Shown here one piece after another: positions 12,341-28,591 of a DNA stretch of 64,000 bases (position 1 is the first letter of the stretch; every line of letters begins with the position of its first letter). The position numbers and the translations under genes were made by a program. This stretch comes from a virus, in IMG/VR virus record IMGVR_UViG_3300021964_000018, positions 64,001-128,000 of that record. The stretch is one strand, 5' to 3'. The notes below the pieces were generated by a model that did not search any database, was not told the DNA's origin, and saw only the letters and a list, made by a program, of their open reading frames with translations.

Positions 12341-12724
12341 ATGAGTAATTGCAAACTTAAAGAAATGTTCGATTTGAGAGAGTCCTTTATTAAAAGGATG
12401 CAAAAAGAAAGACCGGGTTCATATCCAATACCTGTACCTTTAGAAAATCTTTCAGATAAAAAATCCCAGCAAGTTTGCAGAGATCTAGCTTTACGAGGTG
12501 TTGAAGAAATGTTTGAAGCACTTCAACACCTCAAAAACTGGAAACCTCACAAACTAACAGAAGATAAAGAATTCAACAAGGAAGAATTCTTAGAAGAAAT
12601 TGTGGATGCGTTCAATTATTTCATGGCTTTGTTAATTGTTGTAGATGTTGATGAAGAAAAACTATTTGAAGCATACCTTAAAAAAGATCAAAAAATTAGA
12701 AAAAGATTAGATGAAGGATACTAA
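12341..12724 (+). CDS. MazG-like / dimeric dUTPase-type nucleotide pyrophosphohydrolase
   Basis: EE..EA..HL.NWKPH...EEFLEEIVD motifs of all-alpha NTP-PPases. Confidence 0.75.
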   Translation: MSNCKLKEMFDLRESFIKRMQKERPGSYPIPVPLENLSDKKSQQVCRDLALRGVEEMFEALQHLKNWKPHKLTEDKEFNKEEFLEEIVDAFNYFMALLIVVDVDEEKLFEAYLKKDQKIRKRLDEGY

Positions 12725-13614
12725 TGAAACTTGAAACCCTATTCCAAATGCAAAAAGACTTTCAAGATAAACACGTTGGTTTAAAAGGTGATATTGAAGA
12801 AAGAACACAAAAGTTGGCATTATGCGCGCATTCTGAATTAAGCTCCATGATGGAAGCTGTTAATTATAAAATGCATCACAAGTATAGAGACATTCAGATG
12901 AATGCTGCCTCAGACAAAGTAATGTATGAAGCTGTTGATGTTGTGCGCTACATGATTGCTATCATGAATAACTGGCAGATAACACCAGAACAATTTGCAT
13001 TAGCTTATGATAAGAAAGACACTTATCTTCGAATGACTGCAGAAATTAATGAAAAGAAATGGGAGCAACAACCTGTTGTTATTGTTGACTTAGATGATGT
13101 GGTAGTAGATTTTAGGGTTTGTTTTGCCAATTGGCTTGAAGATAATTATGGTCTTAAAATAGACGTGGAATCTGAAGAATATTATTTTATTTCAGCATTG
13201 TCATCTATTGATGTTAATCCAGAAGCTGTATTTGAAAAATTTATGAACCAAGGTGGGTTTTCTCGACCAGACATTAATTCTGGTGTGTATCGCTATCTTT
13301 GGGATTTAAAAAATCAAGGTTTCTGGATTCAATATTTAACAGCAAGGCCTGGCGATAACCTTCGATGCGTTTATGATACGTATGATTGGATTGCAAAACA
13401 TAGCTTACCTTACGACGGTATTGATTTTTCAACAGAAAAATTTAGATGGTGTGCAAGATCTCGTTACTATAAACATATTAAATTTGCAATTGATGATTCA
13501 CCAAAGCATGCCTTAGAATATGCAAAGCATGGAATAGAATGTCATGTTCCTGTTAAATCATATAATAAACAAACAATCGGAATAAATAATATTAAACGGT
13601 ATAAAATATTTTAA
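12724..13614 (+). CDS. MazG-like domain fused to HAD 5'(3')-nucleotidase
   Basis: N-terminal SELS...NYKMH...YEAVD; C-terminal IVDLDDVVVD, LTARP, K, IDDSP (HAD motifs I-IV). Confidence 0.75.
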   Translation: MKLETLFQMQKDFQDKHVGLKGDIEERTQKLALCAHSELSSMMEAVNYKMHHKYRDIQMNAASDKVMYEAVDVVRYMIAIMNNWQITPEQFALAYDKKDTYLRMTAEINEKKWEQQPVVIVDLDDVVVDFRVCFANWLEDNYGLKIDVESEEYYFISALSSIDVNPEAVFEKFMNQGGFSRPDINSGVYRYLWDLKNQGFWIQYLTARPGDNLRCVYDTYDWIAKHSLPYDGIDFSTEKFRWCARSRYYKHIKFAIDDSPKHALEYAKHGIECHVPVKSYNKQTIGINNIKRYKIF

Positions 13615-13626
13615 ACGGAGAGATAT

Positions 13627-13851
13627 ATGCTAATAATATTATTATCAACACTTTTGCTAGCTGAAGAACCTAAAGTTGTTTATAAAAAAAGGACAGAAAT
13701 TGATTTTGAAGCAGTTGACGTTGAAGGTACACTTAAAAAACCAAATCAAGCATTAATAATGGAAAACAATAGAGCAATTTTTAATCCTCTTGTTCAAATT
13801 AGAAACTCATGGCATGTTGAAATGATTGGCTCTGTTGAAGACATACAATAA
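13627..13851 (+). CDS. CglF/GltF-like small exported protein (gliding-motility family)
   Basis: Signal peptide, then YKKRTEIDFE.VDVEG.LKKP...F.PLV.IR...E...SV.DI, resembling the myxobacterial/Bdellovibrio CglF family as recalled. Confidence 0.65.
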   Translation: MLIILLSTLLLAEEPKVVYKKRTEIDFEAVDVEGTLKKPNQALIMENNRAIFNPLVQIRNSWHVEMIGSVEDIQ

Positions 13852-13874
13852 GAATAAATAAAAATTTAAATTTT

Positions 13875-13909
13875 AAGAGCTTGTACAAGCTCTTTTTTTT
13901 TGTTAAAAT
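13875..13909 (+). promoter_or_regulatory. Palindromic terminator overlapping TGTACA-N16-TAAAAT promoter
   Basis: AAGAGCTTGT|ACAAGCTCTT plus T-run; TGTACA at 13882, TAAAAT at 13904. Confidence 0.65.
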
Positions 13910-13929
13910 AAAAATAAAAAGGAGAAAAT

Positions 13930-14916
13930 ATGCCACAAAATAAAAATCTTACACCTGTTAAACTCCCAATGGAACTTAAATTTGGTCAAGAACCAAAAAC
14001 AAAATTTTATAATAATCTTGAACATCTTAAAGTTGAATTAGTTGATGCGCCCACCAGGTCCCAAGCCCTTAATGTTGCATGGCAATATGTAAAAGCAACA
14101 TGGGCTGATCATCATGACGAAACAAATCCAGCAACTGCTTCATTACAAGAATTGTCTGCAAACCTTGAAGATGTTCTTAACTTTCGTGCATTGCCAACAC
14201 CAATGGAATGTTTAGGTTTTACATTTAAGCTGTCCGGACTTTCATTTCAAGAAGTTACTCACATTATTCGTCATCGAGCCGGCTCTTTTGCAGCACAATG
14301 TACAGGTGATCGCGATCTTCGTGATGATCCAGCCGTTATCCCTGAGGCCGTTGAAAACAGTCCAGAGTTTTTGCAACGATATCGAAAAATTGTTCGTGAT
14401 TCAAAGCAACTTTATGCTGACATGTGTGACTCAAAAGACGTCTCTATGATGGATGCTCGAATGATTCTTCCAAAATGTATGACATCTTTTTATCTAATGC
14501 GTCTTAACCTTAAAGACCTATTAGGTTTTATTGCACAGCGTCAAGATATGCAAATTCAACCTGCAGCAGATAATATTCTTGCAGCTTATATGGCACGTGA
14601 GCTTTTAAAAGTTTTACCAGAAGCGTCAACACGAATTAATTTTAGTAAACCTGACATGCATTACATTAAGACTTTCCGTGTACCAGATGGTAAAGGCGGT
14701 GAAACATCACGTGGTACAAATCTTTATTGGCCAGAACCTAAAAATGATAAGTTTGAATATCACCCAAATGATACAATTTATCAGTCACGTCGAGAAGATA
14801 TTAATGGAACAAATAACCCAGGAACAAAAACAAAATTTACACAACTTTGGGAACAAGCTTTACACGAAATAGCAGGTATACAAATAGCTTATGCACAATT
14901 TATGGGTAGAATTTGA
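13930..14916 (+). CDS. thyX: Divergent ThyX-family flavin-dependent thymidylate synthase-like enzyme
   Basis: E...FTF.LSG....THIIRHRAGSFAAQCTGDR...DARMILP....N...L..FI..R. The canonical RHRx7S motif is altered. Confidence 0.75.
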   Translation: MPQNKNLTPVKLPMELKFGQEPKTKFYNNLEHLKVELVDAPTRSQALNVAWQYVKATWADHHDETNPATASLQELSANLEDVLNFRALPTPMECLGFTFKLSGLSFQEVTHIIRHRAGSFAAQCTGDRDLRDDPAVIPEAVENSPEFLQRYRKIVRDSKQLYADMCDSKDVSMMDARMILPKCMTSFYLMRLNLKDLLGFIAQRQDMQIQPAADNILAAYMARELLKVLPEASTRINFSKPDMHYIKTFRVPDGKGGETSRGTNLYWPEPKNDKFEYHPNDTIYQSRREDINGTNNPGTKTKFTQLWEQALHEIAGIQIAYAQFMGRI

Positions 14917-14992
14917 TTTTTTATAGATAAATGCCTATTTAATTTCATAATTAATAATGTTTAAAAATATTTCATTAAGGAGAAATTTAATT

Positions 14993-15904: not shown

Positions 15905-15925
15905 AATTAGCAAATTATTAATTTT

Positions 15926-15978
15926 AAAAGCGGCAATGCCGCTTTTTTTATGTAAAAAAAAAGCTAACTTAATAAAAT
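15926..15978 (+). terminator. Terminator followed by TGTAAA-N16-TAAAAT promoter
   Basis: AAAAGCGGCA-a-TGCCGCTTTTTTT; promoter boxes at 15951 and 15973. Confidence 0.7.
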
Positions 15979-15998
15979 AAAAATAAAAAGGAGCAAAT

Positions 15999-16442
15999 AT
16001 GAATAAATGTTATATTGCCAGCGGTTGGTTTTCACCTGAATGGCTAGAAGAATTAGAAACAATTAAATCTGTACTTGATAGTCTAAATTTAAAATACTTT
16101 TCACCAAAAGATGAAAATCTTTGCGAGCCGGATTCTGACGTTGGTTTTCAAGATCAAGTCTTTAACGGCAATATTAAAGGGATGGAAGAGTGTGATTGGA
16201 TGATCTGTAATACTCGTAATAAAGATATGGGTAGTATTTTTGAAGCAGGTTATTTTCATAAGTTAGGAAAACCAATTGTTTACTTTTGCGCCGGTCTTCC
16301 TCCTGGTGCGCAATTTAATCTTATGCTAGCTGCATCTGGTAAGACAGTTTGTACATCAATTAAACAACTCAAAGGCTATCTTATCGATTGCCAGGCAACA
16401 GGTGAAATTATTACTCGTCGTTATGAAGGAGATATTGAGTAA
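15999..16442 (+). CDS. Nucleoside 2-deoxyribosyltransferase / dNMP N-glycosidase family
   Basis: YIASGWF, FSP, D.GS.FEAG...GKPIV, N.ML motifs. Confidence 0.85.
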   Translation: MNKCYIASGWFSPEWLEELETIKSVLDSLNLKYFSPKDENLCEPDSDVGFQDQVFNGNIKGMEECDWMICNTRNKDMGSIFEAGYFHKLGKPIVYFCAGLPPGAQFNLMLAASGKTVCTSIKQLKGYLIDCQATGEIITRRYEGDIE

Positions 16443-17437
16443 TGAATATTTTTATTACTGGTGAAAAAGGTTTAATTGCACAAAATATTATTAAAGAAGC
16501 AAAAGAAAACTTTCCTGATGTAAATATTATTACAGGAGCTGTTGATTATCTTAATATGCATCAAGAAGGTGAACCTTGTGTTTATAAAAATTCAATTGAT
16601 CAATGGAAATTCTTTTTTGATTTAAATCAAATTGATGTAATTATTCACAATGCAGCTGTTGTTAATACAGAAGTTGTTGGCATGAATCTTGAGCGCGCAA
16701 CACGAACCAACGACGAAGGTACATATAAGATTTGCATGGCAGCACAAAAATGTGACATTCCTGTTTGTTATATGGGAACGACTGTTATCTATGATGCATT
16801 TAAATATCAAAACGAGAAAATAACAGAAGAATCATCACGTGGACCACATACACTTTACGGCTGTCAAAAGCTAGCAGCAGAATATATTGTTAAGTCTCAT
16901 GCACCGAAATGGATGATTATTCGACCTCTATTTGCATATGGCGGAGAAGGTGATATGAATTCACTAATTGCAAAGTCAATTTATGCATGTCTTAACGGAA
17001 AGCAAGTTGATATGCGCCTAGATCCAACAAAATACAAAGATTATATGCACGTTTCAGATTATGCTAATGCAGTCTTAACAGGAATTACACAGCACCTTTG
17101 GAATGACGAATGGAACATCGCGGCAGAAACACCTCATGTAACAGAAAACATTATCAAAATGATTGAAAAGATTTGTGGTTTAGACATGTCAAATACAATC
17201 AATTGGAAATCTACTTCAGACTATACAGGTAATCATAGGTTGGATTCTAGTAAGTTTAGAAATGCTACCGGCTGGTCTCCTAAAGTTATACTAACCAAAG
17301 GAATTAGAATGTCTTATGAAACAATTCTGAATTCGGAAGGTTATAATCCATTAACACACCTTGAAGAAGCAGAAAAAAGAAACATCGACGTGGGAGAATA
17401 CTTTAATGAAGCAAGAATTGCAAGAAAGTCTATTTAA
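16442..17437 (+). CDS. NAD-dependent nucleotide-sugar epimerase/dehydratase (extended SDR)
   Basis: IFITGEKGLIA (degenerate GxxGxxG), IIHNAA, YGCQK (YxxxK), R...AYG, DYMHVSD. Confidence 0.85.
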   Translation: MNIFITGEKGLIAQNIIKEAKENFPDVNIITGAVDYLNMHQEGEPCVYKNSIDQWKFFFDLNQIDVIIHNAAVVNTEVVGMNLERATRTNDEGTYKICMAAQKCDIPVCYMGTTVIYDAFKYQNEKITEESSRGPHTLYGCQKLAAEYIVKSHAPKWMIIRPLFAYGGEGDMNSLIAKSIYACLNGKQVDMRLDPTKYKDYMHVSDYANAVLTGITQHLWNDEWNIAAETPHVTENIIKMIEKICGLDMSNTINWKSTSDYTGNHRLDSSKFRNATGWSPKVILTKGIRMSYETILNSEGYNPLTHLEEAEKRNIDVGEYFNEARIARKSI

Positions 17438-17708: not shown

Positions 17709-17710
17709 TA

Positions 17711-18457
17711 ATGTCACATTCACAATATAAATGTCAAGTTCAAGGAAAAGAAAGTTATATTGATAATCAATTTGTTATCTTTTCTCAATCTTACTTAATG
17801 AATCAGGTTCATATCTACAATAAAGAAAAAGGTCACACAACAAAAAATCGAGTTAAATTATTAGAATTGGGATGTTATAACGGTCGTGTTATGCACTTTA
17901 TGACGCAACAAATGTTATTTGTTGATTATACAGGTGTTGATGTTACTCATCAGTATCTTGCACATTCACCGGTCGCAAATCGAAAAGACGTAACCTTGCT
18001 TTGCGAAGACGTAACAAAAGGATTGTCATTGGCTGACGGTTCTCAAGATATGATTATCAGCTCAGAAGTGTTAGAGCATATCAATCCAGAAGATTTACCA
18101 GGCGTAATGAGAACACTTTATAACAAGCTTAAAGTAGGTGGGCGATGTTGTGTTGCGTTTCCGATGAATACACGTGACACAATGTTTCACAATCTTGAAA
18201 AAGAACAAGGTTTAGGTCACGTTAATTTTCCTGTCTATGAAGACTTTATTGAACTTTGTGAAAACATCGGATTTACCTTACATCATTATGATAGTGGGTT
18301 TTCGCTTAAATCAAGTTTTAGAACACCTCGTTATGGAAAAGATCCGCTATATGACAAGTTAAGAGATCGACTAGGTTCACCTGCTGCTCGAGCTGTTTGG
18401 ATGACAATAACTGATGATCATACTGGTGGAGGATATTTTACTTTTGATAAGTTGTAA
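17711..18457 (+). CDS. Class I SAM-dependent methyltransferase
   Basis: LLELGC..G, YTGVD, D.I.SSEVLEHI, LK.GG. Confidence 0.85.
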   Translation: MSHSQYKCQVQGKESYIDNQFVIFSQSYLMNQVHIYNKEKGHTTKNRVKLLELGCYNGRVMHFMTQQMLFVDYTGVDVTHQYLAHSPVANRKDVTLLCEDVTKGLSLADGSQDMIISSEVLEHINPEDLPGVMRTLYNKLKVGGRCCVAFPMNTRDTMFHNLEKEQGLGHVNFPVYEDFIELCENIGFTLHHYDSGFSLKSSFRTPRYGKDPLYDKLRDRLGSPAARAVWMTITDDHTGGGYFTFDKL

Positions 18458-18502
18458 TTATTGCGAATAATTAATTATTGATTTATACTTTGTTAAAAAG
18501 GT

Positions 18503-20422: not shown

Positions 20423-20447
20423 TTTTATTGTATTTAAAAGGAGTATT

Positions 20448-23400
20448 ATGCCAGTTCTTATCCCCCCACCGACCAAATTCGTCGGGCTTCATTGTCACTC
20501 AGGATTTAGCGTTTATGATGGTCTAGGTTATCCTGCTGATCATATTGATTTTGTGCTTGAAAATGGCATGGATGCCTGGGCTTTAACCGACCATGGAAAC
20601 GGTTCCGGTCTCGCACACGCACATAAACATGCCGAAAAACTCAGAAAGAAAGGTGTCAAGTATCGACAAATTTATGGTTGTGAATTTTATTTTGTGCCGT
20701 CGCTAAAACAATGGCGCGGTGATTATGAACAAGCAAAAATTGACCGTGCTGCTGCAAAACAAAAAGCAATCAAAGAAGAAGAGGAAGGTGGTCATATTAT
20801 TGAAAACGAAGAAGAAACCAAAACCTTTAAACTATCGAATGATGAATGGAAACGACGTTATCACTTGGTGATCACTGCGCAAAACGCCGAAGGTTTATCC
20901 AATCTCTTTACTCTGATTAAACGCGCCTATACAGATGGTTTCTACAGATATCCTCGAATTGATTTTGATCTTCTTAAAAAATATGGACGCGGTTTAAATG
21001 TGTCGACAGCTTGTCTTGGCGGCATATATTCAAATCGTATTATGCGTGGCAATGCGCTCAAATTATCAGACGAACAAATTCAATCTGAACTGTTGCAGCT
21101 ATCTGATCGTTTTGTTGATGCTGTCGGCGAAGATAATTTTTATCTTGAAGTTCAATTTAATCGACTTAAACAACAACACCTGGTAAATCATCATCTACTT
21201 CGACATGCTGATCAAACTGGTATTCCTCTTTTAGCAACAGCTGATTCTCATTACTATAGCCCGGATAAGTGGGAGGCGCGCGAATTGTATAAAAAACTTG
21301 GTTGGATGGGTGCTGATCCTAGTCCGCTACCTGAGTTTGAAGATTTAAAATGCGAACTATACCCTAAGAACGCAGAACAAATGTGGGGTGAGTTTACAAG
21401 ACATTATGATGAATACGAAGATACATACAAAGGTTATGAAGAAAAAATTAAAGGTGCCATTGAAAGATCGTATGAAATTGCCTGGGATAAATGCGAAGAC
21501 TGTTGGATTGATACTTCTGTTAAGCTTCCCGATTTTAACTCTCCTGAGTCGTCAGCTTTTCAAAAGCTGGGAAAAAAGGTCAAAGAGGCGCTTGTCAAAG
21601 AAGAATTGCACAAAAAACCAGAATATGTCGCCCGAGCAAAGGCAGAATTAGAAGATATCAAATACTTAGGATTTGAAAACTATTTCTTGGTGATGAATGA
21701 GGTATTTCATAAGGCGGCTGACCATACGCTGTTTGGTCCTGCCCGTGGTTCTGGTGGCGGTTCTTTGGTTAATTATTTGTTGGGAATTACTCAGGTTGAC
21801 CCGCTTAAATACGACCTTCTTTGGGAGCGGTTTCTCGGAAGACATCGAACATCTTGGCCTGACATTGATTCTGACGCTGGCGATCGCGATGCTCTTATAA
21901 ATGCAGCCCGAGAACTCTACGGTAATGAAGCTGTTATTCCTGTTTCAAACTTTAACACTCTTAAGCTTAAATCGCTAGTAAAAGATATTGCCAAGTTCTA
22001 TGGCATTGATTTTGGCGAAGTAAATAAAATGACCGGTCCATTACAAAGTGAAGTAATGGCTCAAGCACGCGATGAAAACACAGAAAAATCTGTGTTTGTC
22101 CTTAAACATGCGGATTGCATGAAATATTCAAAAGGCTATCGTGAGTTTATGGAAAAATATCCAAAAGTCAAAGATCACCTTGAAGCCTTATTCATGCAGA
22201 ACAGATCGGTTGGGCGTCATGCTGGCGGTGTTATTATTGGTCCACCCGAAGACCTTGAAAGGTCAATGCCTATTATCGGTGTTCGTGGTGAATTACAAAC
22301 TCCTTGGACGGAAGGTATGAACTTCAGAAATCTTGAGGATAATGGTTTTATTAAGTTTGACTTTCTTGGTTTGACGCTATTAAAAGACGTAGAAAACTGT
22401 ATTAGTCGAATTATTACTCGTGAAACAGGTAAGAAACCAACATTTCTCGAAATACGTGATTGGTTTGATAAACATCTAAATTGTCGTTATGTCACACAAG
22501 ATGATGAAAAGGTTTGGAAACATGTTTATCATCAACGAAGAAAAACAGGTGTCTTTCAATTTACTGCTGAAGGTGCTCGTAAGTTCTGTGAAAATGCCAA
22601 ACCAACTACAATTGAAGAATTAGCAGCATTAACAGCAATCTATCGTCCCGGTCCTCTTCGTGCTAATGTTCATAAAAAATATGTAAAGGATAAAGCCAAT
22701 GCGGAAAACATTGAATATGCACATCCTATTATTAAAGAAATCCTAGGCACGACTTTTGGTCATGTTACGTTTCAAGAACAGTTCATGCTTCTTGCACAGA
22801 AGCTAGGTGGATTCTCTCCGGCTGAATCTGATAAACTTAGAAAGACGTTAGTTAAAAAGTCATTGGATACTATGGGTAAGAAAGGTGATGAACGTGAAGC
22901 TGCTCGAATTAAATTCGTAACCGGTGCCAAAGAAATCAATGGTGTTCCGGAGCATGTATCACAAGAGTTATGGGAACGTATTGAATTCTTCTCGGTTTAT
23001 GGTTTCAATAAGTCTCATGCTATTGCCTATGCTTTGGATTCTTATTATGCAGCATGGTTGCATACTTATTATGAAACTGACTGGCTAGGTACTATTCTGG
23101 AATCCGAGAATAACAATCCTGATGCTTTGGCAAAGGCGATTAGTGAAATTAAGGCTATGGGCTTTGAAGTATCTACACCGGACATTAATGAATCAGGAAT
23201 TGCATGGACATGGTCCGAAAATAAAAAGGCGTTTATTCCACCCTTAACTTCGATTAAAGGTCTTGGTAAAAATGCTGTGAAAGAAATATTTGAAAATCGA
23301 CCTTACGAGTCAATTGATCAAATGTTATTTAATGAAGAAGGCAAATGGTATCACTCTAAACTTAACAAAACTGGATTTGCTGCATTGTGCAAGGTTGAGG

Positions 23401-23960
23401 CATTACATTCACTAAAAGAAATGTGGGATGGAACGATTAAAAATCACCGTCAGCTGCATGAAATTATTATTGAAAATTATGTTCTGCTTAAAAAATCTCG
23501 ATGGGGTATGACAATTCGTCAGGCCCAAAAGAAAGATGCACCTGACTTTTTCTTGCAATTAATTGATGATACAGCTGAAATTGAAGATTGGAATCGATTA
23601 GAAAAACTACAAATGTATCAGGATTTATGTTCAGCGACTCGTGATGACCTCGCATTTCCTGAAGAAATGTTAACTAAAATTCAATCATCAGGCGTCAAAT
23701 CAGTTTTACAGTTCGCGCCTGGTGAAAAATCAATTGGTTGGTTTTGTGTGATTGAATGGATTAAAAAGACAACCAAGAATAAGAAAACCTTTTATCGAAT
23801 TAAGATAACTGATAATCAAAATAATACAGGTTGGCTTCGAATGTGGGGTAATAAGCCTAGTTCAATGACTCCTTATTCTATCTGGCTGACTAAGGCGCAT
23901 AATGATCCGAATTGGGGTGCTTCAACAAGTGTCGCAAAAGTAAGACCTTTAATTGTGTAA
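20448..23960 (+). CDS. dnaE: DNA polymerase III alpha subunit (C family)
   Basis: PHP domain (LHCHS, ALTDHG, ADSHY); PARGSGGGSL, ERFL, PDIDSD, HAGG, KFDFLGL, YGFNKSHA motifs. Confidence 0.95.
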   Translation: MPVLIPPPTKFVGLHCHSGFSVYDGLGYPADHIDFVLENGMDAWALTDHGNGSGLAHAHKHAEKLRKKGVKYRQIYGCEFYFVPSLKQWRGDYEQAKIDRAAAKQKAIKEEEEGGHIIENEEETKTFKLSNDEWKRRYHLVITAQNAEGLSNLFTLIKRAYTDGFYRYPRIDFDLLKKYGRGLNVSTACLGGIYSNRIMRGNALKLSDEQIQSELLQLSDRFVDAVGEDNFYLEVQFNRLKQQHLVNHHLLRHADQTGIPLLATADSHYYSPDKWEARELYKKLGWMGADPSPLPEFEDLKCELYPKNAEQMWGEFTRHYDEYEDTYKGYEEKIKGAIERSYEIAWDKCEDCWIDTSVKLPDFNSPESSAFQKLGKKVKEALVKEELHKKPEYVARAKAELEDIKYLGFENYFLVMNEVFHKAADHTLFGPARGSGGGSLVNYLLGITQVDPLKYDLLWERFLGRHRTSWPDIDSDAGDRDALINAARELYGNEAVIPVSNFNTLKLKSLVKDIAKFYGIDFGEVNKMTGPLQSEVMAQARDENTEKSVFVLKHADCMKYSKGYREFMEKYPKVKDHLEALFMQNRSVGRHAGGVIIGPPEDLERSMPIIGVRGELQTPWTEGMNFRNLEDNGFIKFDFLGLTLLKDVENCISRIITRETGKKPTFLEIRDWFDKHLNCRYVTQDDEKVWKHVYHQRRKTGVFQFTAEGARKFCENAKPTTIEELAALTAIYRPGPLRANVHKKYVKDKANAENIEYAHPIIKEILGTTFGHVTFQEQFMLLAQKLGGFSPAESDKLRKTLVKKSLDTMGKKGDEREAARIKFVTGAKEINGVPEHVSQELWERIEFFSVYGFNKSHAIAYALDSYYAAWLHTYYETDWLGTILESENNNPDALAKAISEIKAMGFEVSTPDINESGIAWTWSENKKAFIPPLTSIKGLGKNAVKEIFENRPYESIDQMLFNEEGKWYHSKLNKTGFAALCKVEALHSLKEMWDGTIKNHRQLHEIIIENYVLLKKSRWGMTIRQAQKKDAPDFFLQLIDDTAEIEDWNRLEKLQMYQDLCSATRDDLAFPEEMLTKIQSSGVKSVLQFAPGEKSIGWFCVIEWIKKTTKNKKTFYRIKITDNQNNTGWLRMWGNKPSSMTPYSIWLTKAHNDPNWGASTSVAKVRPLIV

Positions 23961-23983
23961 ATTAAAAATATTTTAATTAAAAT
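23956..23983 (+). promoter_or_regulatory. TGTAAA-N16-TAAAAT promoter
   Basis: Recurring motif upstream of an AAGGAG SD. Confidence 0.6.
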
Positions 23984-24003
23984 AATACTAAAAGGAGTTT
24001 TTA

Positions 24004-24900
24004 ATGGTTAAGTTTCCTATTGAAAAAATTATAATTGAAGGTCCAGATTTAGCTGGAAAAACAACATTGCTTAATAAAATGCATGATATATCAAAATTCC
24101 GCTGGAATATACAAGATCGTTCTGCATTATCAATGCTAATTTATGCAAAAATGTATAATCGAGATACGTTTCACTTAGTTGAAAATCTTAAAAAAGAACT
24201 GTTTAATCTTAACAATCAAATTGTTTTATTACTACCACCTTTTGAAGTTTTATCAAAAAGGTTTCAAAAACGTGGTGATCCAATACAAAATTTAATATCA
24301 TTGCGAAAGCTTCATAAGCTATTTTCAGAATTTGAAGAAGAATATGGATCTTTACCAAACGTAACAGTTGTTAAAAAAGAAATTAGTGATCATGATTATA
24401 AATCAATTGTAGGTCGTTATCTTGCAATGGAACAACATGCTACAATACATCAATTTCCTGCTATGTGTGTTAATGCTGCTAATACACAGGATAACAAAGA
24501 AGTCGTTGGCCTTAGGTTTACTTATTTTGATGATGGCCAATTCACAGATGTTATTCCAGAACTTATGGAGTATAAAGGGGAAAAAGAATATTATCTTAAA
24601 ATTAGAGAAAAGTTGCATTATAAAATGATGCAAAATCATACTGACAGCCAAGATGTTTCTTCTAGAAGAATAATTTATAGCGATGATAGTTGTATTTCTT
24701 TGGCACATTTTTTAATACGTGAACAAATGTTTGATGCTAAGTTTTTTCTGCGATCATCAAATGTAAAAGATACTTTGAAATATGATATTAATTTTATTCA
24801 TTTTCTAACTAGTCATGTATATCAATCTTATCATTGCAATCAGCCTGTGAAAATAGAACTGACGTTAAACTCGGCACATATTTGTGATAGAATAGATTAG
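24004..24900 (+). CDS. dNMP (thymidylate) kinase fused to a thymidylate-synthase-like domain
   Basis: IIIEGPDLAGKTT, DRS, R..RGD; C-terminal SRR...SCISLAHF..R.......RSSN.....YD resembles the TS-fold core. Confidence 0.7.
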   Translation: MVKFPIEKIIIEGPDLAGKTTLLNKMHDISKFRWNIQDRSALSMLIYAKMYNRDTFHLVENLKKELFNLNNQIVLLLPPFEVLSKRFQKRGDPIQNLISLRKLHKLFSEFEEEYGSLPNVTVVKKEISDHDYKSIVGRYLAMEQHATIHQFPAMCVNAANTQDNKEVVGLRFTYFDDGQFTDVIPELMEYKGEKEYYLKIREKLHYKMMQNHTDSQDVSSRRIIYSDDSCISLAHFLIREQMFDAKFFLRSSNVKDTLKYDINFIHFLTSHVYQSYHCNQPVKIELTLNSAHICDRID

Positions 24901-24902
24901 TT

Positions 24903-25061
24903 ATGAAAAATGATAAGCTTTGGTTATTAATTGATGGCGTACTAAAAAAACTGCATCATGCAAAATTTTGGGCTACTTCTATTGATCCTCACAAAGAAGA
25001 TATAATAAAAGCAATAGAAGCTTTAGAATCTGCAAGAAAGAAAATTGAGGAAGAAAAATGA
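24903..25061 (+). CDS. Small hypothetical protein (52 aa, absent from ORF track)
   Basis: MKNDKLWLLIDG...EEEK*; fills the gap and has an ATGA overlap with dut. Confidence 0.5.
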   Translation: MKNDKLWLLIDGVLKKLHHAKFWATSIDPHKEDIIKAIEALESARKKIEEEK

Positions 25062-25468
25062 AAATTAATATTAAAAAACTGCATCCAAATGCAGTGATCC
25101 CTGCATATGCAAAACAAGGTGATGCAGGTATGGATTTAACAGCAATCGGAATAAAAGAAACCGGTTCTCACATCACATATCATACAGGTTTGGCAATAGA
25201 AATCCCAAGAGGTTATGTGGGTTTATTGTTTCCTAGAAGCTCAATCTATAAAACAGATCAGACACTAACAAATTCAGTAGGCGTTATTGATAGCGGGTAT
25301 CGAGGTGAAATTATGATGAAATTTACTCGAGGAATTAATCATTATTGTATTGGTGATAGAATTGGTCAAATTATGATTTTACCTTATCCGCAAATTGAAT
25401 TTGAAGAAGTTGATCAACTTTCAACTTCAGAAAGAGGGGCTAATGGCTATGGAAGCACAGGAGCCTAA
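25058..25468 (+). CDS. dut: Trimeric dUTPase
   Basis: AGMDL, PRSS, GVIDSGYRGEI, RIGQ, RG.NGYGSTG motifs. Confidence 0.95.
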   Translation: MKINIKKLHPNAVIPAYAKQGDAGMDLTAIGIKETGSHITYHTGLAIEIPRGYVGLLFPRSSIYKTDQTLTNSVGVIDSGYRGEIMMKFTRGINHYCIGDRIGQIMILPYPQIEFEEVDQLSTSERGANGYGSTGA

Positions 25469-25682
25469 TCTAAATTCAGAAGCATATGAATATATTATTT
25501 ATGAGAATAATAAACTAATAGTTTTTCCTTCACCTTCTGGTATGCACGCAGGAATGAAAAGACATTATTATTTTAAAAAAGTTTTTAATGAATATCATTT
25601 GACAATTGTAAATAGGAAATCTTGGGAAAAATTAAAAAATCAATATAAAGTAAAAGTTTTAAAAATTAAGGAGAAAGAATGA
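25449..25682 (+). CDS. Hypothetical protein
   Basis: Tiles between dut and the epimerase. Confidence 0.45.
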   Translation: MEAQEPNLNSEAYEYIIYENNKLIVFPSPSGMHAGMKRHYYFKKVFNEYHLTIVNRKSWEKLKNQYKVKVLKIKEKE

Positions 25683-26710
25683 AAAAAGCACTCGTAACAG
25701 GTGGCTGCGGATTTATCGGTAGTAATCTTACAAAAGAATTAATAAAACAAGGTTGGCAAGTCGATATTGTTGATGACATGTCTAATGGTCATTTAGAGTT
25801 GTTAGGCGGTTTAAAATTTAAAACGCTTCCAAATGCATCTTTTGTTTATCATTTTATGAATCAGATGAAAGGAAAAACACAAAGGGCTAAGAATACTGTG
25901 CTTGTAATTCAAGATGATTTTGCTGCACCAGCGCTTCTTGATTATATTGAAACAAATGCTTACGATGTAATATTTCACCAAGCAGCAGTTCCGAGAGTAA
26001 GTTATTCAGTTGAGTTTCCTTATGAAACTACAATTAATAACATTGCAAAAACTGTATCACTTTTCGATGCTGCTAAAGGTCATGTTAAAAGAATTGTTAA
26101 TGCATCATCTTCATCAGTTTATGGCGGGGCTGATAAATTACCTACTAAGGAAAGTGAAAATCAAAAAAGCCCAAAGTCTCCTTATGCATGGCAAAAAAGT
26201 GCGATTGAAGATTATTCAAAAATCTGTGCCGATTTATATGATTTAGACATTGTAAATTTAAGATATTTTAATGTTTTCGGCCCAGGTCAATATGGTAATA
26301 GTCCTTATTCAACGGCGGTGTCTGCATGGTGTCATGCAATTAAAAATGGATTAGAATGTAGATCTGACGGTGATGGAGAGCAAACCCGCGATATGTGTTA
26401 TATAGACAATATTGTATCAGCTAATATTTTAGCAGCATATGCAACCGGAAAATTTAAAGGTTTGGCATATAATGTTGCATGTGGAGACAGGGTCTCAAAC
26501 AATGAAATTTTAAATTATCTTAAAAACCAGTTTGGAGATCGAGTTAAAGTAAAAAATGCTCCAGAAAGACCAGGTGATGTAAAACATACACAGGCAGATA
26601 TCAGTTGTGCAACACAAGATTTTGGTTATAAACCTCTTGTTCAGTTTTGGGAAGGTTTGGAAAGAACAATCGAGTGGTGGGAAATAAAACCTGACGAATC
26701 AAATAAATAG
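25679..26710 (+). CDS. NDP-sugar 4-epimerase (GalE/WbpP-like SDR)
   Basis: VTGGCGFIGS, HQAA, ASSSSVYG, SPYAWQK, LRYFNVFGP, GDGEQTRD, RPGDV. Confidence 0.9.
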   Translation: MKKALVTGGCGFIGSNLTKELIKQGWQVDIVDDMSNGHLELLGGLKFKTLPNASFVYHFMNQMKGKTQRAKNTVLVIQDDFAAPALLDYIETNAYDVIFHQAAVPRVSYSVEFPYETTINNIAKTVSLFDAAKGHVKRIVNASSSSVYGGADKLPTKESENQKSPKSPYAWQKSAIEDYSKICADLYDLDIVNLRYFNVFGPGQYGNSPYSTAVSAWCHAIKNGLECRSDGDGEQTRDMCYIDNIVSANILAAYATGKFKGLAYNVACGDRVSNNEILNYLKNQFGDRVKVKNAPERPGDVKHTQADISCATQDFGYKPLVQFWEGLERTIEWWEIKPDESNK

Positions 26711-26736
26711 TAATAGACTTTATCCCGGAGGATTAA

Positions 26737-27579
26737 ATGAAACTTGAACCATCACTTGTTGATTGTGTAATTTATCACGCAAATTGTACAGATGGTTTCG
26801 GTGCTGCATACTCAGCATGGAAGCTTTTAGGAAATCGTGCTGAGTATCATGCATGTGTGCATGGCCAAAAGCCACCTGACGTCAAAGGAAAGAATGTTGT
26901 TATACTTGATTTCTCCTTTGACAATAAAACAACTAAAAAATTAATTGAAAAAGCAGAAAACCTTTTAATTATCGATCATCACAAATCTGCAATGGTTGAA
27001 TTACACGATATCAGCAATACACATTTTGACATGACAAAGTCAGGAGCAATGTTATCATGGGAATGGTTTCACCCAGGAAAAGAGCCACCTAAGTTTATTC
27101 AATATATCATGGATAGAGACTTATGGAAATGGGAATTGCCATACTCGAAAGAATTTTCAGCTGCGTTTGATATGGTACCTTATGAATTTGAAGAATTTGA
27201 AAAGTTTGAAGATGATTCAGTTTTTGATGATGCAGTTAAGCGAGGAAGTTTTATTCTTGCATATTCAAAAACTGTAATTAAAAAAGTTTGTGATAAAGCT
27301 GTGCCTAAAAAATTAGACAATAGTAATGTCATGGTCGTTAACAGTTCTCATTGGATGTCAGAAATTGGTGCAAGATTAGCTCCTGACTGTGATTATGCAC
27401 TTATTTGGTATTATGATCATGCAGTTCAAGAATGTCGGGTAAGCCTTCGCGCATTTCATGATAATGTCGATGTTTCAGAAGTAGCCAAAAAGTTTGGAGG
27501 CGGTGGCCACAAGAAGGCTGCTGGTTTTACGTTAAAAGGAAAAATGGTAATTGATGATATTTTTGACAAGGAAAAATAA
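26737..27579 (+). CDS. DHH/DHHA1 phosphoesterase
   Basis: YH..C.DG, LDFS, IDHH, D.DLW, SLR, GGGGH..AAGF. Confidence 0.9.
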   Translation: MKLEPSLVDCVIYHANCTDGFGAAYSAWKLLGNRAEYHACVHGQKPPDVKGKNVVILDFSFDNKTTKKLIEKAENLLIIDHHKSAMVELHDISNTHFDMTKSGAMLSWEWFHPGKEPPKFIQYIMDRDLWKWELPYSKEFSAAFDMVPYEFEEFEKFEDDSVFDDAVKRGSFILAYSKTVIKKVCDKAVPKKLDNSNVMVVNSSHWMSEIGARLAPDCDYALIWYYDHAVQECRVSLRAFHDNVDVSEVAKKFGGGGHKKAAGFTLKGKMVIDDIFDKEK

Positions 27580-28188
27580 ATGTTAACGGCAATGGGCGAC
27601 GTTATGCGAAAAGCACACGAAAAAGGATGGATTACAACAAGAGATGGTAATGTATCTGTTAAAATGACAGGAAAAGATATCCTATATATAACACCTTCTG
27701 GTTGGCGAAAGACAATATTGCATCCTGAACATATTATTAAAGTTAAATTTACCCCTGCAGGTTTAAACGTTCCAGAAGGAACAACACCTTCTGGGGAATT
27801 GCATATGCATTCAAAGCTTCAACGGTTTGCAAAATATACGAGATCGGTTGTTCACCTTCACCCCACAAATATTATTGCAGCAATGTATGCCGGCTGGAAT
27901 TTGCAATCGTTGGCAGCAGAATTTCCTGAGGTATCACGTTATACAAGGGTTGGACCAACTGTTCCAGTTCTTCCTGTCACGTCGAATATACTTGCTGAAG
28001 AAACATTTGAGGCTTTTACTGATTTTGAAGGTACCGGATCTAATAAACTTAAGTTTGATATTGTTGGTCAAAAAAATCATGGAGTTTGTGCAGTAGGCGC
28101 AAATCCATGGGATGCTTATGAACATATTGAAAGGTTAGAACACATTTGTGAAATAGCCTTAAAAAGTGGAAGAAGACCTAATGAATAG
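27580..28188 (+). CDS. Class II aldolase/adducin family protein
   Basis: GNVS, ITPSG, PSGE..MH, VVHLHP, NHG. Confidence 0.85.
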   Translation: MLTAMGDVMRKAHEKGWITTRDGNVSVKMTGKDILYITPSGWRKTILHPEHIIKVKFTPAGLNVPEGTTPSGELHMHSKLQRFAKYTRSVVHLHPTNIIAAMYAGWNLQSLAAEFPEVSRYTRVGPTVPVLPVTSNILAEETFEAFTDFEGTGSNKLKFDIVGQKNHGVCAVGANPWDAYEHIERLEHICEIALKSGRRPNE

Positions 28189-28591
28189 ACCAGAATGGGA
28201 TGATATATGGATGGGTTTTGCTCAAAGTATTGCTAAGAGATCTTGTGATTCAAAATATCAAGTTGGTGCCGTCGTTGTAAATTCAGAAAACACACAAGTT
28301 CTTTCAATAGGATATAATGGTGATCAAAAAGGTGGGTCAAATCAAAGGGACTCTACTGAAACCGGTCAATCAGGATTTATTCATGCAGAAATCAATGCAT
28401 TAATTAAGATGGACTATAATAACCCATGTAAGAAAAAAATGTATTTGACTCTTTCGCCTTGTGAAGTCTGTGCAAAAGCAATCGTCAATGCAGGAATAAC
28501 AGCAGTCGTTTATTCTAAAGAATATGAGCACGGAAAAAAAGGAATATCTATTTTAAATGATGCAGGAATAGTGGTAAGAAACATTAAATGA
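28181..28591 (+). CDS. dCMP deaminase
   Basis: RP.WD, VGAV, GYNG, HAEINA, PCEVC. Confidence 0.9.
   Translation: MNRPEWDDIWMGFAQSIAKRSCDSKYQVGAVVVNSENTQVLSIGYNGDQKGGSNQRDSTETGQSGFIHAEINALIKMDYNNPCKKKMYLTLSPCEVCAKAIVNAGITAVVYSKEYEHGKKGISILNDAGIVVRNIK

What the first reader, a model, noticed from the sequence alone, without database searches (positions are those of the whole stretch)
12341..28591. Candidate novel DNA base-replacement or hypermodification pathway surrounding dnaE
Seen, clustered around the phage's own polymerase: three nucleotide pyrophosphatases (two MazG-like, one trimeric dUTPase), a HAD nucleotidase, an atypical ThyX, a deoxyribosyltransferase, an NDP-sugar SDR co-transcribed with a SAM methyltransferase, a dNMP kinase/TS-like fusion, a second epimerase, DHH, class II aldolase and dCMP deaminase. 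Established: phages that replace a base (T4 hmC, SPO1 hmU) combine a TS-fold enzyme, a dedicated kinase and pyrophosphatases that remove the canonical dNTP. Inference: synthesis of a modified, possibly sugar-bearing, pyrimidine at the nucleotide level. No recognisable DNA glycosyltransferase is in the window.
Basis: partly seen in the sequence, partly recalled or inferred. Interest (0 to 1): 0.8.

Follow-up and report, generated by a model that had tools for sequence, protein, structure and literature searches.

The report
Phage cytosine-modification module around dnaE
An uncultured estuarine giant phage carries, around its own DNA polymerase, a conserved gene block for reshaping nucleotide pools, and one gene in it fuses a nucleotide kinase to a stripped-down thymidylate-synthase domain built for dCMP, so the phage probably puts a modified cytosine into its DNA, although this is unproven.

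Summary
The core order is kept in about 80 related IMG/VR contigs: MazG, MazG-HAD, ThyX-like, NDT, SDR1, DnaE, kinase/TS-like fusion, SDR2, DHH, dCMP deaminase. The SAM methyltransferase, the class II aldolase and the ORFs of 315 and 603 aa are not conserved.

The key gene is 24004-24900. It fuses a TMPK/YorR-like kinase to a roughly 150-aa minimal thymidylate-synthase fold. The best structural match of that fold is the flavin-dependent dCMP hydroxylase AfhB of phage HY126. It keeps the Cys nucleophile, has Asp at the U/C-specificity site, and here has Asn at the E. coli D169 site, the published signature of 5-hydroxy-dCMP synthases.

A long, rewired ThyX-like gene accompanies this domain in four separate phage lineages. 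One is cultured Geobacillus phage GR1, where the two genes overlap. Some relatives also carry a canonical ThyX.

My best reading (about 0.5) is a T4-style pre-replicative replacement of cytosine. The sugar-bearing part is unsupported: the 141-kb contig has no glycosyltransferase, and the glycosyltransferase island examined in one complete relative looks like an ordinary glycan island.

The scan noted this fusion before on other DNA (e1-5354489). No paper found describes it.

The parts
11306..12115 (+). Fpg/Nei-family DNA glycosylase, directly upstream of the block. In some relatives it lies between NDT and SDR1.
   Evidence: Pfam Fapy_DNA_glyco, H2TH and C-terminal domain. Homologues in 46 of 80 related loci.
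12239..12724 (+). MazG-like all-alpha NTP pyrophosphohydrolase (MazG1). Candidate dCTPase. The likely start is the ATG at 12341.
   Evidence: PHROG 12184 at 8e-15 and PHROG 173 at 2e-10. No Pfam, NCBIfam or PDB sequence match. Present in 71 of 80 related loci.
12724..13614 (+). Fusion of a MazG/dimeric-dUTPase-like pyrophosphatase (residues 1-120) with a HAD phosphatase of the NT5C 5'-deoxynucleotidase type (residues 106-283).
   Evidence: Pfam NT5C 1.5e-5 and dUTPase_2 1.1e-3; PHROG 173 and 415. Present in 66 of 80 loci. Its start overlaps the stop of MazG1 by one base.
13930..14916 (+). Long ThyX-like flavoprotein (328 aa) with a rewired substrate loop and a conserved C-terminal extension of about 90 aa.
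   Evidence: Thy1 3.8e-18. TIGR02170 scores 41.6 bits against a cut-off of 87.9. The motif RHRAGSFAAQCTGDRDLR is invariant in 13 relatives. AF2 model pLDDT 85.7; Foldseek finds PolB, atypical C. glutamicum ThyX and T. maritima ThyX with TM about 0.7.
15999..16442 (+). Nucleoside 2-deoxyribosyltransferase family enzyme. Its stop overlaps the start of SDR1.
   Evidence: Pfam 3.9e-14 and PHROG 7995 at 4e-25. Aligns to NDT 6evs (5e-7) and PTD 1s2d, with the D..G..FE.G nucleophile motif kept. Present in 77 of 80 loci.
16442..17437 (+). Extended SDR (SDR1), RmlB/RmlD/GalE-like, with a YxxxK catalytic motif.
   Evidence: Pfam Epimerase 9e-24. All NCBIfam equivalogs score far below their cut-offs. Present in 58 of 80 loci.
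17711..18457 (+). Class I SAM methyltransferase. No homologue found in the related loci, so probably not part of the core pathway.
   Evidence: Methyltransf_23/11/25. 0 of 80 loci.
20448..23960 (+). DnaE-type replicative polymerase (PHP, pol III alpha, finger, HhH).
   Evidence: Pfam. Less than 30% identical to the DnaE of cultured phages.
24004..24900 (+). Fusion of a P-loop dNMP/dN kinase (residues 1-147) with a minimal thymidylate-synthase fold (about 148-298). This is the candidate dCMP C5-modifying enzyme with a built-in kinase.
   Evidence: AF2 pLDDT 91.5. Foldseek top hits are 9iqu/9iqc AfhB, then ThyA, MilA and T4 dCH. VIA: YorR Z 14.0 for residues 7-148 and AfhB Z 12.1 for 66-296. The profile hits T4 dCH 1b49 at E 0.0017 and AfhB at 0.04. 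Conserved residues: E193, R221, R222, C230, R250, S251, D261, H292.
25058..25468 (+). Trimeric dUTPase.
   Evidence: Pfam 6e-19 and PHROG 135 at 1e-49.
25679..26710 (+). Extended SDR (SDR2), UDP-sugar 4-epimerase-like (TviC/GalE best), with GxxGxxG and YxxxK motifs.
   Evidence: Pfam Epimerase 9e-43. NCBIfam TviC scores 149 bits against a cut-off of 760. Follows Kin in the relatives.
26737..27579 (+). DHH/DHHA1 phosphoesterase.
   Evidence: PHROG 4771 at 2.8e-76.
27580..28188 (+). Class II aldolase/epimerase family protein (MtnB/FucA/AraD-like). No homologue found in the flanks of the relatives.
   Evidence: Pfam 1.8e-27. Best NCBIfam hit is MtnB at 61.7 bits against a cut-off of 137. 0 of 80 loci.
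28166..28591 (+). dCMP deaminase.
   Evidence: Pfam 4e-21 and PHROG 174 at 2e-43.
44878..46115 (+). Outside the finding: a cytidylyltransferase-like nucleotidyltransferase (44878-45333) whose stop overlaps the start of a phosphomannomutase (45333-46115). Together they could supply an NDP-sugar.
   Evidence: Pfam CTP_transf_like 1e-13 and PMM 7e-35.

Best explanation
The block is the nucleotide-pool module of a distant T4-like jumbo myovirus that replicates with its own DnaE. I propose that it works like the T4 and RB69 pre-replicative cytosine-replacement pathways.

Inferred steps: MazG-like pyrophosphatases turn dCTP, and perhaps other dNTPs, into monophosphates. The minimal TS domain of gene 24004-24900 attacks C6 of dCMP with Cys230 and installs a substituent at C5. 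In this phage the substituent is most likely a hydroxyl, made with a flavin and O2 as in AfhB and RB69 gp48. The fused kinase domain immediately phosphorylates the product, so that the host NDP kinase and the phage DnaE can put it into DNA. The long ThyX-like flavoprotein is a dedicated partner of this enzyme, supplying either a reduced flavin or a one-carbon unit. It may also make dTMP. dCMP deaminase and dUTPase feed dUMP into dTMP for a genome that is 68% AT. The MazG-HAD fusion and NDT strip and recycle unwanted canonical deoxynucleotides.

Shown here: the folds, the conserved catalytic residues, the fusion and the gene linkage. Inferred: every substrate, every product and the presence of a modified base in the DNA.
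For: 1. TS fold fused to a kinase. The model has pLDDT 91.5. AfhB is the best TS-type match in both Foldseek (E 4e-6) and VIA-align (Z 12.1, 148 residues, rmsd 2.9). MilA, T4 dCH and ThyA follow.

2. Independent sequence support. The domain profile hits T4 dCMP hydroxymethylase (E 0.0017) and AfhB (E 0.04). The alignment places C230 on the nucleophile, R250-S251 on the RS pair, N253 on E. coli D169 and D261 on E. coli N177 / T4 D179.

3. Conservation in 150 cluster representatives: Cys in 137 of 142 aligned, Asp261 in 137 of 137, R250 in 139, S251 in 140, His292 in 125 of 127. This pattern fits a catalytic site and fits a mere binding site less well.

4. Lee et al. 2026 (PMC13326640) showed experimentally that TS homologues carrying N177D together with D169N make 5-hydroxy-dCMP, and that incorporation into DNA was detectable by UV only when the cognate dNMP kinase was co-expressed. 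The window's protein reads RSSN...D, and the kinase is fused to it. RB69 keeps a TMPK-like kinase and a MazG-like dCTPase in or near the same cluster.

5. The domain ends a few residues after the His strand, as AfhB does. It therefore lacks the C-terminal segment that closes over folate in classical TS (the role of that segment is from my own knowledge of TS).

6. The kinase linkage holds in split form. Locus L093 has NT5C, a TMPK-like gene and a stand-alone mini-TS as adjacent genes.

7. A long ThyX-like gene accompanies the mini-TS in four lineages. In the window's clade they share one module. In Geobacillus phage GR1 the two genes overlap. In L095 two genes separate them. In L096 they are adjacent. 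Ten relatives and L095 also carry a canonical ThyX with the full RHRxxSYNExSxRY motif, so the long form is not simply the dTMP synthase.

8. In all 23 related loci that reach past a complete DnaE, the fusion gene follows it directly.

9. C/G-containing palindromes are not avoided (median observed/expected 1.05 for 4-mers and 1.14 for 6-mers). This is weak evidence, but it is consistent with protected DNA.
Against: No experiment exists on any member of this family, and no cultured phage other than GR1 has it.

The TS domain is only about 150 residues. It lacks the N-terminal half of AfhB and T4 dCH, and Pfam's Thymidylat_synt model does not detect it at E<=0.01. Its cofactor site is therefore unknown.

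About half of the family has Asp or Glu, not Asn, at the D169 position, so the 5-hydroxy assignment cannot hold for the family as a whole. L095 carries both an AfhB-like TS (RSAN...D) and a D-type fusion, which suggests that the fusion does something other than what AfhB does.

The phage keeps an Fpg/Nei glycosylase next to the block. From general knowledge, Nei removes oxidised pyrimidines, including 5-hydroxycytosine.

Every other enzyme in the block has an ordinary role in dTTP and dATP supply. The variable inserts in relatives are ordinary nucleotide-metabolism genes: PurA, IMPDH/GMP reductase, adenylosuccinate-lyase-type Lyase_1, RNR, thymidine kinase.

No DNA glycosyltransferase is present on the contig.
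Confidence: 0.5

Rival explanations
1. This is ordinary dNTP supply and pool conversion for an AT-rich jumbo phage. MazG enzymes and DHH release dNMPs from host nucleotides and oligonucleotides. dCMP deaminase, dUTPase and the ThyX-like enzyme make dTMP. HAD plus NDT swap bases on deoxyribose (for example dG or dC into dA or dT), and the kinase re-phosphorylates the products. The minimal TS domain is a dNMP-binding, regulatory or substrate-channelling appendage of the kinase. The virion DNA is canonical.
For: Every conserved gene except the TS domain has such a role. The genome is about 32% GC. Inserts in relatives add the GMP-to-AMP conversion route (IMPDH/GMP reductase, PurA, Lyase_1), RNR and thymidine kinase. 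The ThyX-like protein keeps the ThyX fold, RHR and the ARxxLP arginine. No glycosyltransferase or other post-replicative modifier lies on the contig. A Nei-type glycosylase is kept.
Against: It does not explain near-universal conservation of the Cys nucleophile, the RR and RS pairs, the Asp at the specificity site and the His in 150 diverged clusters. It does not explain why a long ThyX-like gene travels with the domain, even in lineages that also have a canonical ThyX and where the long form has lost RHR. The ThyX-like protein fails the thyX equivalog cut-off and lacks the S/R/Y substrate loop and His53.
Confidence: 0.3
2. On the sugar part only: the SDRs, the aldolase, the methyltransferase and the PMM/nucleotidyltransferase pair serve glycan synthesis (host envelope or virion glycosylation), as in cyanophage-type sugar islands. 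They have nothing to do with DNA. This reading can be true whether or not cytosine is modified.
For: The 100%-complete relative G001 has an island of about 25 kb. It holds a true GDP-mannose dehydratase (1e-127), four SDRs, GT1, GT2, GT6 and GT11 glycosyltransferases, a carbamoyltransferase, a PfkB kinase, a cupin, a class II aldolase, a transaldolase, a radical SAM enzyme and a Methyltransf_23. Iyer et al. 2021 (PMC7824862) describe this kind of island in jumbo phages. No homologue of the window's aldolase or methyltransferase was found in the related loci. All NCBIfam sugar equivalogs score far below their cut-offs.
Against: SDR1 directly follows NDT (overlapping here), and SDR2 directly follows the kinase fusion in most relatives and in L094 and L097. 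That is inside the nucleotide module and not in the glycan island. L096 has three glycosyltransferases 6 kb from the fusion gene, and GR1 has an annotated glycosyltransferase between NDT and the kinase. RB69 and DLP3 pair a 5-hydroxy-dCMP synthase with NDP-sugar genes.
Confidence: 0.55
3. The TS-like, NDT and SDR enzymes make a free modified nucleoside or nucleotide that is not destined for DNA. It could be an inhibitor of host metabolism or of a defence system. The logic would resemble the MilA (TS-like) plus MilB (NDT-family) pair in mildiomycin biosynthesis.
For: TS-fold, NDT-family and uronate-type SDR enzymes co-occur in one module. MilA is among the best structural matches. The MilA/MilB parallel comes from my own knowledge and was not tested here.
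Against: The fused dNMP kinase and the position next to DnaE point to a polymerase substrate. The NDT aligns to true transferases (6evs, 1s2d), and no MilB or DNPH1 chain appeared at E<=1.
Confidence: 0.07

Closest known systems
Flavin-dependent 5-hydroxy-dCMP synthases: HY126 AfhB (PDB 9iqu, 9iqc), RB69 gp48, DLP3 gp80 (Lee et al., NAR 2026, PMC13326640)
   Same: TS fold, and the best structural match. Cys nucleophile, RS pair, Asn at E. coli D169, Asp at E. coli N177 and a polar or acidic residue at L143. The chain ends just after the His strand. It works together with a TMPK-like dNMP kinase and a MazG-type dCTPase in a T4-like phage.
   Different: The domain has only about 150 residues and lacks the N-terminal part of AfhB. 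It is covalently fused to the kinase. Pfam PF00303 does not detect it. Half of the family has Asp or Glu at the D169 site. It is accompanied by a long ThyX-like protein, which is not reported for the AfhB systems. No arabinose pathway or DNA glycosyltransferase lies beside it.
T4 dCMP hydroxymethylase (gp42) pathway with gp56 dCTPase, gp1 dNMP kinase, cd and td
   Same: Same overall logic and the same set of activities: pyrophosphatase, TS-fold enzyme specific for dCMP (Asp at the N177 site), kinase, dCMP deaminase, a thymidylate synthase and the phage's own polymerase. T4-like structural genes lie on the same contig. T4 dCH is the best sequence-profile match of the domain.
   Different: No folate-closing C-terminus. 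ThyX-type rather than ThyA-type TS. DnaE rather than a family B polymerase. No alpha- or beta-glucosyltransferase.
Flavin-dependent thymidylate synthase ThyX and its divergent relatives (PolB UMP methylase 4p5b; atypical C. glutamicum ThyX 3fnn/3ge9)
   Same: ThyX fold (TM about 0.7), the RHR triad, the ARxxLP arginine and the R...Q region.
   Different: The ThyX motif is replaced by RHRAGSFAAQCTGDRDLR. The His53 equivalent is Leu. There is a conserved C-terminal extension of 90 aa. The protein scores below the TIGR02170 cut-off. It co-occurs with a canonical ThyX in some genomes.
Geobacillus phage GR1 (OK896991), the only cultured phage with the same parts
   Same: ThyX-like protein 46% identical over its full length; a mini-TS ORF (N type) overlapping the end of that gene; a separate P-loop kinase; NDT; a 5'-deoxynucleotidase; DHH; DnaE; dUTPase.
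   Different: A 79-kb siphovirus of a thermophilic Firmicute. The kinase and mini-TS are separate genes. The nucleotidase is of the HD (YfbR) type. It has an annotated glycosyltransferase and a nitroreductase-type flavoenzyme in the cluster. Its paper contains no DNA-modification data.

Membership tests
Thymidylate synthase superfamily (ThyA / dCMP hydroxymethylase fold) | TS alpha/beta fold with the central sheet and helices B and J | tested here: met
   Foldseek hits to AfhB, ThyA, MilA and T4 dCH at E 4e-6 to 3e-4. VIA Z 10.7-12.1 over model residues 146-298.
Thymidylate synthase superfamily (ThyA / dCMP hydroxymethylase fold) | Catalytic Cys, Arg-Arg and Arg-Ser phosphate binders, His of the last strand | tested here: met
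   C230, R221-R222, R250-S251 and H292 are invariant in 23 relatives and nearly so in 150 cluster representatives.
Thymidylate synthase superfamily (ThyA / dCMP hydroxymethylase fold) | Match to the Pfam model PF00303 | tested here: not met
   No match in the whole contig at E<=0.01. hmmscan of the protein lists only kinase families.
Thymidylate synthase superfamily (ThyA / dCMP hydroxymethylase fold) | Folate-binding elements (small domain, C-terminal closing segment) | tested here: not met
   The domain has about 150 aa and ends 6 residues after H292. Only 28 residues lie between E193 and R221. The mapping to the folate elements comes from my own knowledge of E. coli TS.
5-hydroxy-dCMP synthase (AfhB / RB69 gp48 type) | Asn at E. 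coli D169 together with Asp at N177 (the diagnostic of Lee et al. 2026) | tested here: met
   RSSN253 and D261, aligned to RSQN and D of AfhB. The signature is from PMC13326640. Only 62 of 150 family representatives have Asn.
5-hydroxy-dCMP synthase (AfhB / RB69 gp48 type) | Flavin cofactor, O2-dependent hydroxylation, product 5hodCMP | not testable with these tools
   Needs purified protein or the in vivo plasmid LC-MS assay.
5-hydroxy-dCMP synthase (AfhB / RB69 gp48 type) | Full-length single-domain TS homologue of about 220-250 aa | tested here: not met
   The TS part has about 150 aa and is fused to a kinase. The profile-to-AfhB alignment covers only AfhB residues 159-223, plus the SRR strand.
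Flavin-dependent thymidylate synthase ThyX | ThyX fold and Pfam Thy1 above the gathering score | tested here: met
   Thy1 scores 66.4 bits against 24.8. Foldseek TM about 0.7 to ThyX and PolB.
Flavin-dependent thymidylate synthase ThyX | ThyX motif RHRxxSxxxxSxR(Y) and the folate-stacking His (Tm H53) | tested here: not met
   RHR is kept. In the HMMER alignment to T. maritima ThyX, E86 becomes A, S88 becomes C, R90 becomes G, Y91 becomes D and H53 becomes L. MAFFT offers a different alignment in which the loop is deleted.
Flavin-dependent thymidylate synthase ThyX | NCBIfam equivalog TIGR02170 cut-off | tested here: not met
   41.6 bits against a cut-off of 87.9.
Nucleoside 2-deoxyribosyltransferase | Pfam PF05014 above the cut-off and the catalytic Glu in the D..G..FE.G motif | tested here: met
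   53.2 bits against 28.8. Aligned to 6evs and 1s2d with the Glu conserved.
T4-type pre-replicative base replacement with post-replicative glycosylation | A pyrophosphatase specific for the canonical dNTP | tested here: inconclusive
   Two MazG-like proteins are present, but no match informs on their specificity.
T4-type pre-replicative base replacement with post-replicative glycosylation | A DNA glycosyltransferase | tested here: not met
   No glycosyltransferase family among ORFs of 100 aa or more on the 141-kb contig at E<=1e-4. The contig is only 54% complete. Relatives have glycosyltransferase islands elsewhere.

The most novel reading that the evidence does not exclude
The long ThyX-like flavoprotein and the kinase-fused minimal TS domain form a previously unrecognised two-component, folate-independent system. 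It would make a 5-substituted deoxycytidine nucleotide that is neither hmC nor simply the AfhB product. NDT and SDR1 would act on the same nucleoside. On this reading, a large and abundant clade of marine and estuarine jumbo phages, about 400 protein clusters in all, carries an undescribed DNA base.
Probability: 0.15. Interest if true: 0.9.

Novelty: new variant of a known kind. Interest (0 to 1): 0.72.

Why it matters
Pre-replicative pyrimidine replacement by TS homologues is known mainly from cultured phages of enterobacteria, Bacillus, Acinetobacter and Rhizobium. Here the same logic appears in a compact, fused and so far uncharacterised form. It is found in at least 409 protein clusters and in phages that recur in estuary and marine metagenomes from 24 studies.

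If the product is a modified cytosine, three things follow:
- Sequencing-based and restriction-based surveys of marine viromes would need to take it into account.
- The TS superfamily would gain a minimal catalytic core.
- The ThyX family would gain a second function.

The case is directly testable, because Geobacillus phage GR1 is in culture and a published in vivo assay exists.

Tried and rejected
- **ThyX-like / mini-TS complex.** Complex prediction on the ThyX-like protein (A1) with the mini-TS domain (A5) gave no verdict: score 0.00, controls not run. It is not evidence either way.
- **Cultured relatives.** Megablast of the block against cultured phages found nothing. tblastn of the fusion protein against 50,697 phage records found nothing. 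An exact-pattern scan of IMG/VR with the fusion protein found nothing, because the protein is too diverged.
- **PDB sequence searches.** Searches with the single ThyX-like, fusion, MazG1 and MazG2-HAD proteins gave nothing useful.
- **Unassigned ORFs as hidden glycosyltransferases.** The 603-aa ORF 18503-20314 has no family, a poor Atlas model and no homologue in the related loci. The 538-aa ORF 46322-47938 is an Ig-like HYDIN/DUF1573 protein. Neither is a hidden glycosyltransferase. The 315-aa and 603-aa ORFs begin with the basic helical leader that other readers of this genome noted, so I left them out of the pathway.
- **GR1 glycosyltransferase.** It has no Pfam match and no homologue in this genome or in the related loci.
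- **Sequencing runs.** All 24 holders are Logan contigs of DNA runs. No RNA holder was listed and there were no raw long reads, so neither base-modification signal nor expression could be examined.
- **Palindrome avoidance.** None was found. I treat this only as weak, non-specific evidence.

Full report
**What the DNA is.** The window is bases 64001-128000 of a 141-kb IMG/VR viral contig. CheckV rates it 54% complete, which implies a genome of about 260 kb. GC content is about 32% and almost all genes lie on the + strand. A Pfam census of the rest of the contig finds T4-type structural and replication genes: gp23 capsid, gp20 portal, prohead protease, sheath, baseplate, T4-type terminase, gp32, RecA, RNR and DnaB. 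This is therefore a distant T4-like jumbo myovirus that uses a DnaE polymerase. Near-identical sequence occurs in estuary and marine metagenomes from 24 studies.

**The observation.** Support for the two MazG-like proteins rests on PHROG profiles and one sub-threshold Pfam match. The other assignments are clear at family level, but none reaches an NCBIfam equivalog cut-off.

The clustering is real. Eighty related IMG/VR loci (60-88% identity in the ThyX-like protein) keep the order MazG1, MazG2-HAD, ThyX-like, NDT, SDR1, DnaE, kinase fusion, SDR2, DHH, dCMP deaminase. In all 23 loci that extend beyond a complete DnaE, the kinase fusion follows it directly.

The SAM methyltransferase, the class II aldolase and the 603-aa ORF have no homologue in those loci, and the 315-aa ORF has one in only 3. 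The 315-aa and 603-aa ORFs start with a basic helical leader, so I treat them as inserts. Inserts in relatives are mostly ordinary nucleotide-metabolism genes (PurA, IMPDH/GMP reductase, Lyase_1, RNR, thymidine kinase, NUDIX, a phosphoribosyltransferase) plus chaperones. No glycosyltransferase appears among the 25 commonest of the 41 families detected.

**The key gene.** An alignment of 23 orthologues of 24004-24900 shows an N-terminal P-loop kinase. The C-terminal half has invariant E193, R221, R222, C230, R250, S251, D261 and H292. The AlphaFold model is confident (pLDDT 91.5).

Foldseek ranks the HY126 dCMP hydroxylase AfhB first (9iqu, E 4e-6; 9iqc). Next come YorR for the kinase half, and ThyA, MilA and T4 dCMP hydroxymethylase. 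VIA-align gives Z 14.0 for YorR over residues 7-148 and Z 12.1 for AfhB (148 residues, rmsd 2.9). MilA scores 11.5 and classical TS 10.7 over residues 146-298.

A profile of the C-terminal domain alone hits T4 dCMP hydroxymethylase (E 0.0017) and AfhB (E 0.04) in the PDB sequences. This is independent of the fold search. The alignments place C230 on the nucleophile, R250-S251 on the RS pair, N253 on E. coli D169 and D261 on E. coli N177 / T4 D179. Pfam's TS model does not see the domain. The domain is about 150 residues long and stops just after the His strand, as AfhB does.

**Comparison with published work.** Lee et al. (NAR 2026, PMC13326640) showed that RB69 gp48, DLP3 gp80 and nine further TS homologues make 5-hydroxy-dCMP. 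These enzymes bind a flavin and use O2. Incorporation into DNA was detectable by UV only when the cognate dNMP kinase was co-expressed. The diagnostic signature is N177D with D169N, and a polar or acidic residue at L143 correlates with non-methyl products.

The window's protein carries that signature: D227 by ungapped offset, N253 and D261. It also has the kinase fused to it. RB69 likewise keeps a TMPK-like kinase in the cluster and encodes a MazG-type dCTPase. I found no paper that describes the fusion.

**Size and variation of the family.** A search of 1.84 billion cluster representatives finds 409 clusters at E<=1e-3 and 165 at E<=1e-10. Most are fusions of about 300 aa, and some are stand-alone proteins of 170-200 aa. 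In the best 150, the Cys, the two Arg, the Ser, the Asp and the His are nearly universal. Position 253 is Asn in 62, Asp in 63 and Glu in 8. The dCMP-type specificity residue is therefore a family trait, while the hydroxylase signature holds for only about half, including this phage and GR1.

**Gene linkage in other lineages.**
- In L093 an NT5C nucleotidase, a TMPK-like kinase and a stand-alone mini-TS are consecutive genes.
- In Geobacillus phage GR1 the annotated 'FAD-dependent thymidylate synthase' is 46% identical to the window's ThyX-like protein over its full length. The gene overlaps a 151-aa 'hypothetical' ORF that matches the mini-TS profile (E 3e-10, with motifs DECIS, QRSSN, DDVQFF, PHVF). 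A P-loop protein 2 kb upstream matches the kinase half (E 5e-15). NDT, a YfbR-type 5'-deoxynucleotidase, DHH, DnaE, dUTPase, a nitroreductase-type flavoenzyme and an annotated glycosyltransferase lie in the same 15 kb.
- In L095 (a PolA phage) a 342-aa Thy1-like protein lies two genes upstream of a D-type fusion. An AfhB-like TS (RSAN...D) lies next to that Thy1-like gene, and a canonical 221-aa ThyX lies further along.
- In L096 the fusion is directly followed by a 273-aa Thy1-like gene, with three glycosyltransferases 6 kb away.

**The ThyX-like protein.** It has the ThyX fold, RHR and the ARxxLP arginine. Its substrate loop reads RHRAGSFAAQCTGDRDLR in all relatives examined. The His53 equivalent is Leu, and there is a conserved C-terminal extension of 90 aa. 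It scores 41.6 bits against the thyX equivalog cut-off of 87.9.

Ten relatives carry an additional canonical ThyX (RHRTWSYNEISRRY) a few kb upstream. In L095 and L096 the partner has even lost RHR. Together with the linkage above, this makes the long form more likely an accessory of the mini-TS than a plain dTMP synthase. In this phage, however, it is the only TS-type gene found on the contig, so a role in dTMP synthesis cannot be excluded. A complex prediction gave no verdict.

**The sugar question.** SDR1 overlaps the end of NDT, and SDR2 follows the fusion gene in most relatives and in L094 and L097. Both have catalytic YxxxK motifs. A nucleotidyltransferase-PMM pair lies 16 kb downstream.

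The 141-kb contig has no Pfam glycosyltransferase. Three of four large relatives have glycosyltransferases about 100 kb from the module. In the complete relative these lie in an island with Gmd, four SDRs, GT1/2/6/11, a carbamoyltransferase, PfkB, a cupin, an aldolase, a radical SAM enzyme and a methyltransferase. This is the kind of glycan island described for jumbo phages (PMC7824862). A sugar-bearing base is therefore possible, but nothing here supports it.

**Assessment.** The evidence consists of fold, catalytic residues, fusion and conserved linkage, with no chemistry.

The ordinary reading is pool conversion for an AT-rich genome. It explains most of the genes, and the adjacent Nei-type glycosylase sits uneasily with 5-hydroxycytosine in DNA. 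The lack of palindrome avoidance is only weakly informative.

I put the modified-cytosine reading at about 0.5 and the purely canonical reading at about 0.3. The specific product 5-hydroxy-dC is the most likely single guess for this phage, but its probability is well below one half. Earlier notes of this scan made the same reading of the fusion gene on this genome. A follow-up on another genome (e1-5354489) reached the same closest-known family, and I re-derived that independently here.

Noticed in passing
window 11306-12115: An Fpg/Nei-family DNA glycosylase lies directly upstream of the MazG genes. It is conserved in 46 of 80 relatives and sits between NDT and SDR1 in some. Its role in a phage that may carry an oxidised-looking cytosine is unclear.
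   Followed up: partly
window 44878-46115: A cytidylyltransferase-like nucleotidyltransferase and a eukaryotic-type phosphomannomutase have overlapping stop and start codons. Together they could supply an NDP-sugar.
   Followed up: partly
L042, L054-L057, L060, L075, L076, L080, L081 (for example L060:6108-6806): Ten relatives carry a second ThyX of canonical size with the full RHRTWSYNEISRRY motif, a few kb upstream of the long ThyX-like gene.
   Followed up: yes
L082 (Geobacillus phage GR1) 12149-15173: The GR1 proteins annotated 'P-loop NTPase' (UDY80706) and 'hypothetical protein' (UDY80710) are the split kinase and mini-TS halves. The mini-TS ORF overlaps the end of the ThyX-like gene.
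   Followed up: yes
L095 6805-7485: A PolA phage contig encodes an AfhB-like short TS homologue (RSAN...D), a Thy1-like protein of 342 aa without RHR, a D-type kinase/mini-TS fusion and a canonical ThyX, all within 10 kb.
   Followed up: partly
G001 (record of L049) about 125-150 kb; L098, L099: The complete 284-kb relative has a glycan-type island of about 25 kb with Gmd, four SDRs, GT1/2/6/11 glycosyltransferases, a carbamoyltransferase, PfkB, a cupin, a transaldolase, a radical SAM enzyme and a methyltransferase.
   Followed up: partly
window 14957-15904 and 18503-20314: Both non-conserved ORFs begin with a basic amphipathic leader (for example MKLNRHSLRMLIESV). Other first-reader notes on this genome reported this leader on a dozen or more unrelated proteins.
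   Followed up: no
L071 16126-19985, L072 13257-17116, L096 1021-4579: DnaE is split into two consecutive ORFs in some relatives. L016 has a truncated DnaE followed by genes on the opposite strand.
   Followed up: no
whole contig G000: 4-bp and 6-bp palindromes are not avoided under a maximal-order Markov model, apart from TATA, TAATTA and GGTACC.
   Followed up: yes
related loci, variable inserts between ThyX-like and DnaE: The inserts include adenylosuccinate synthetase, IMPDH/GMP reductase and an adenylosuccinate-lyase-type Lyase_1. These enzymes would convert GMP into AMP, the purine counterpart of the dCMP-to-dTMP conversion.
   Followed up: no
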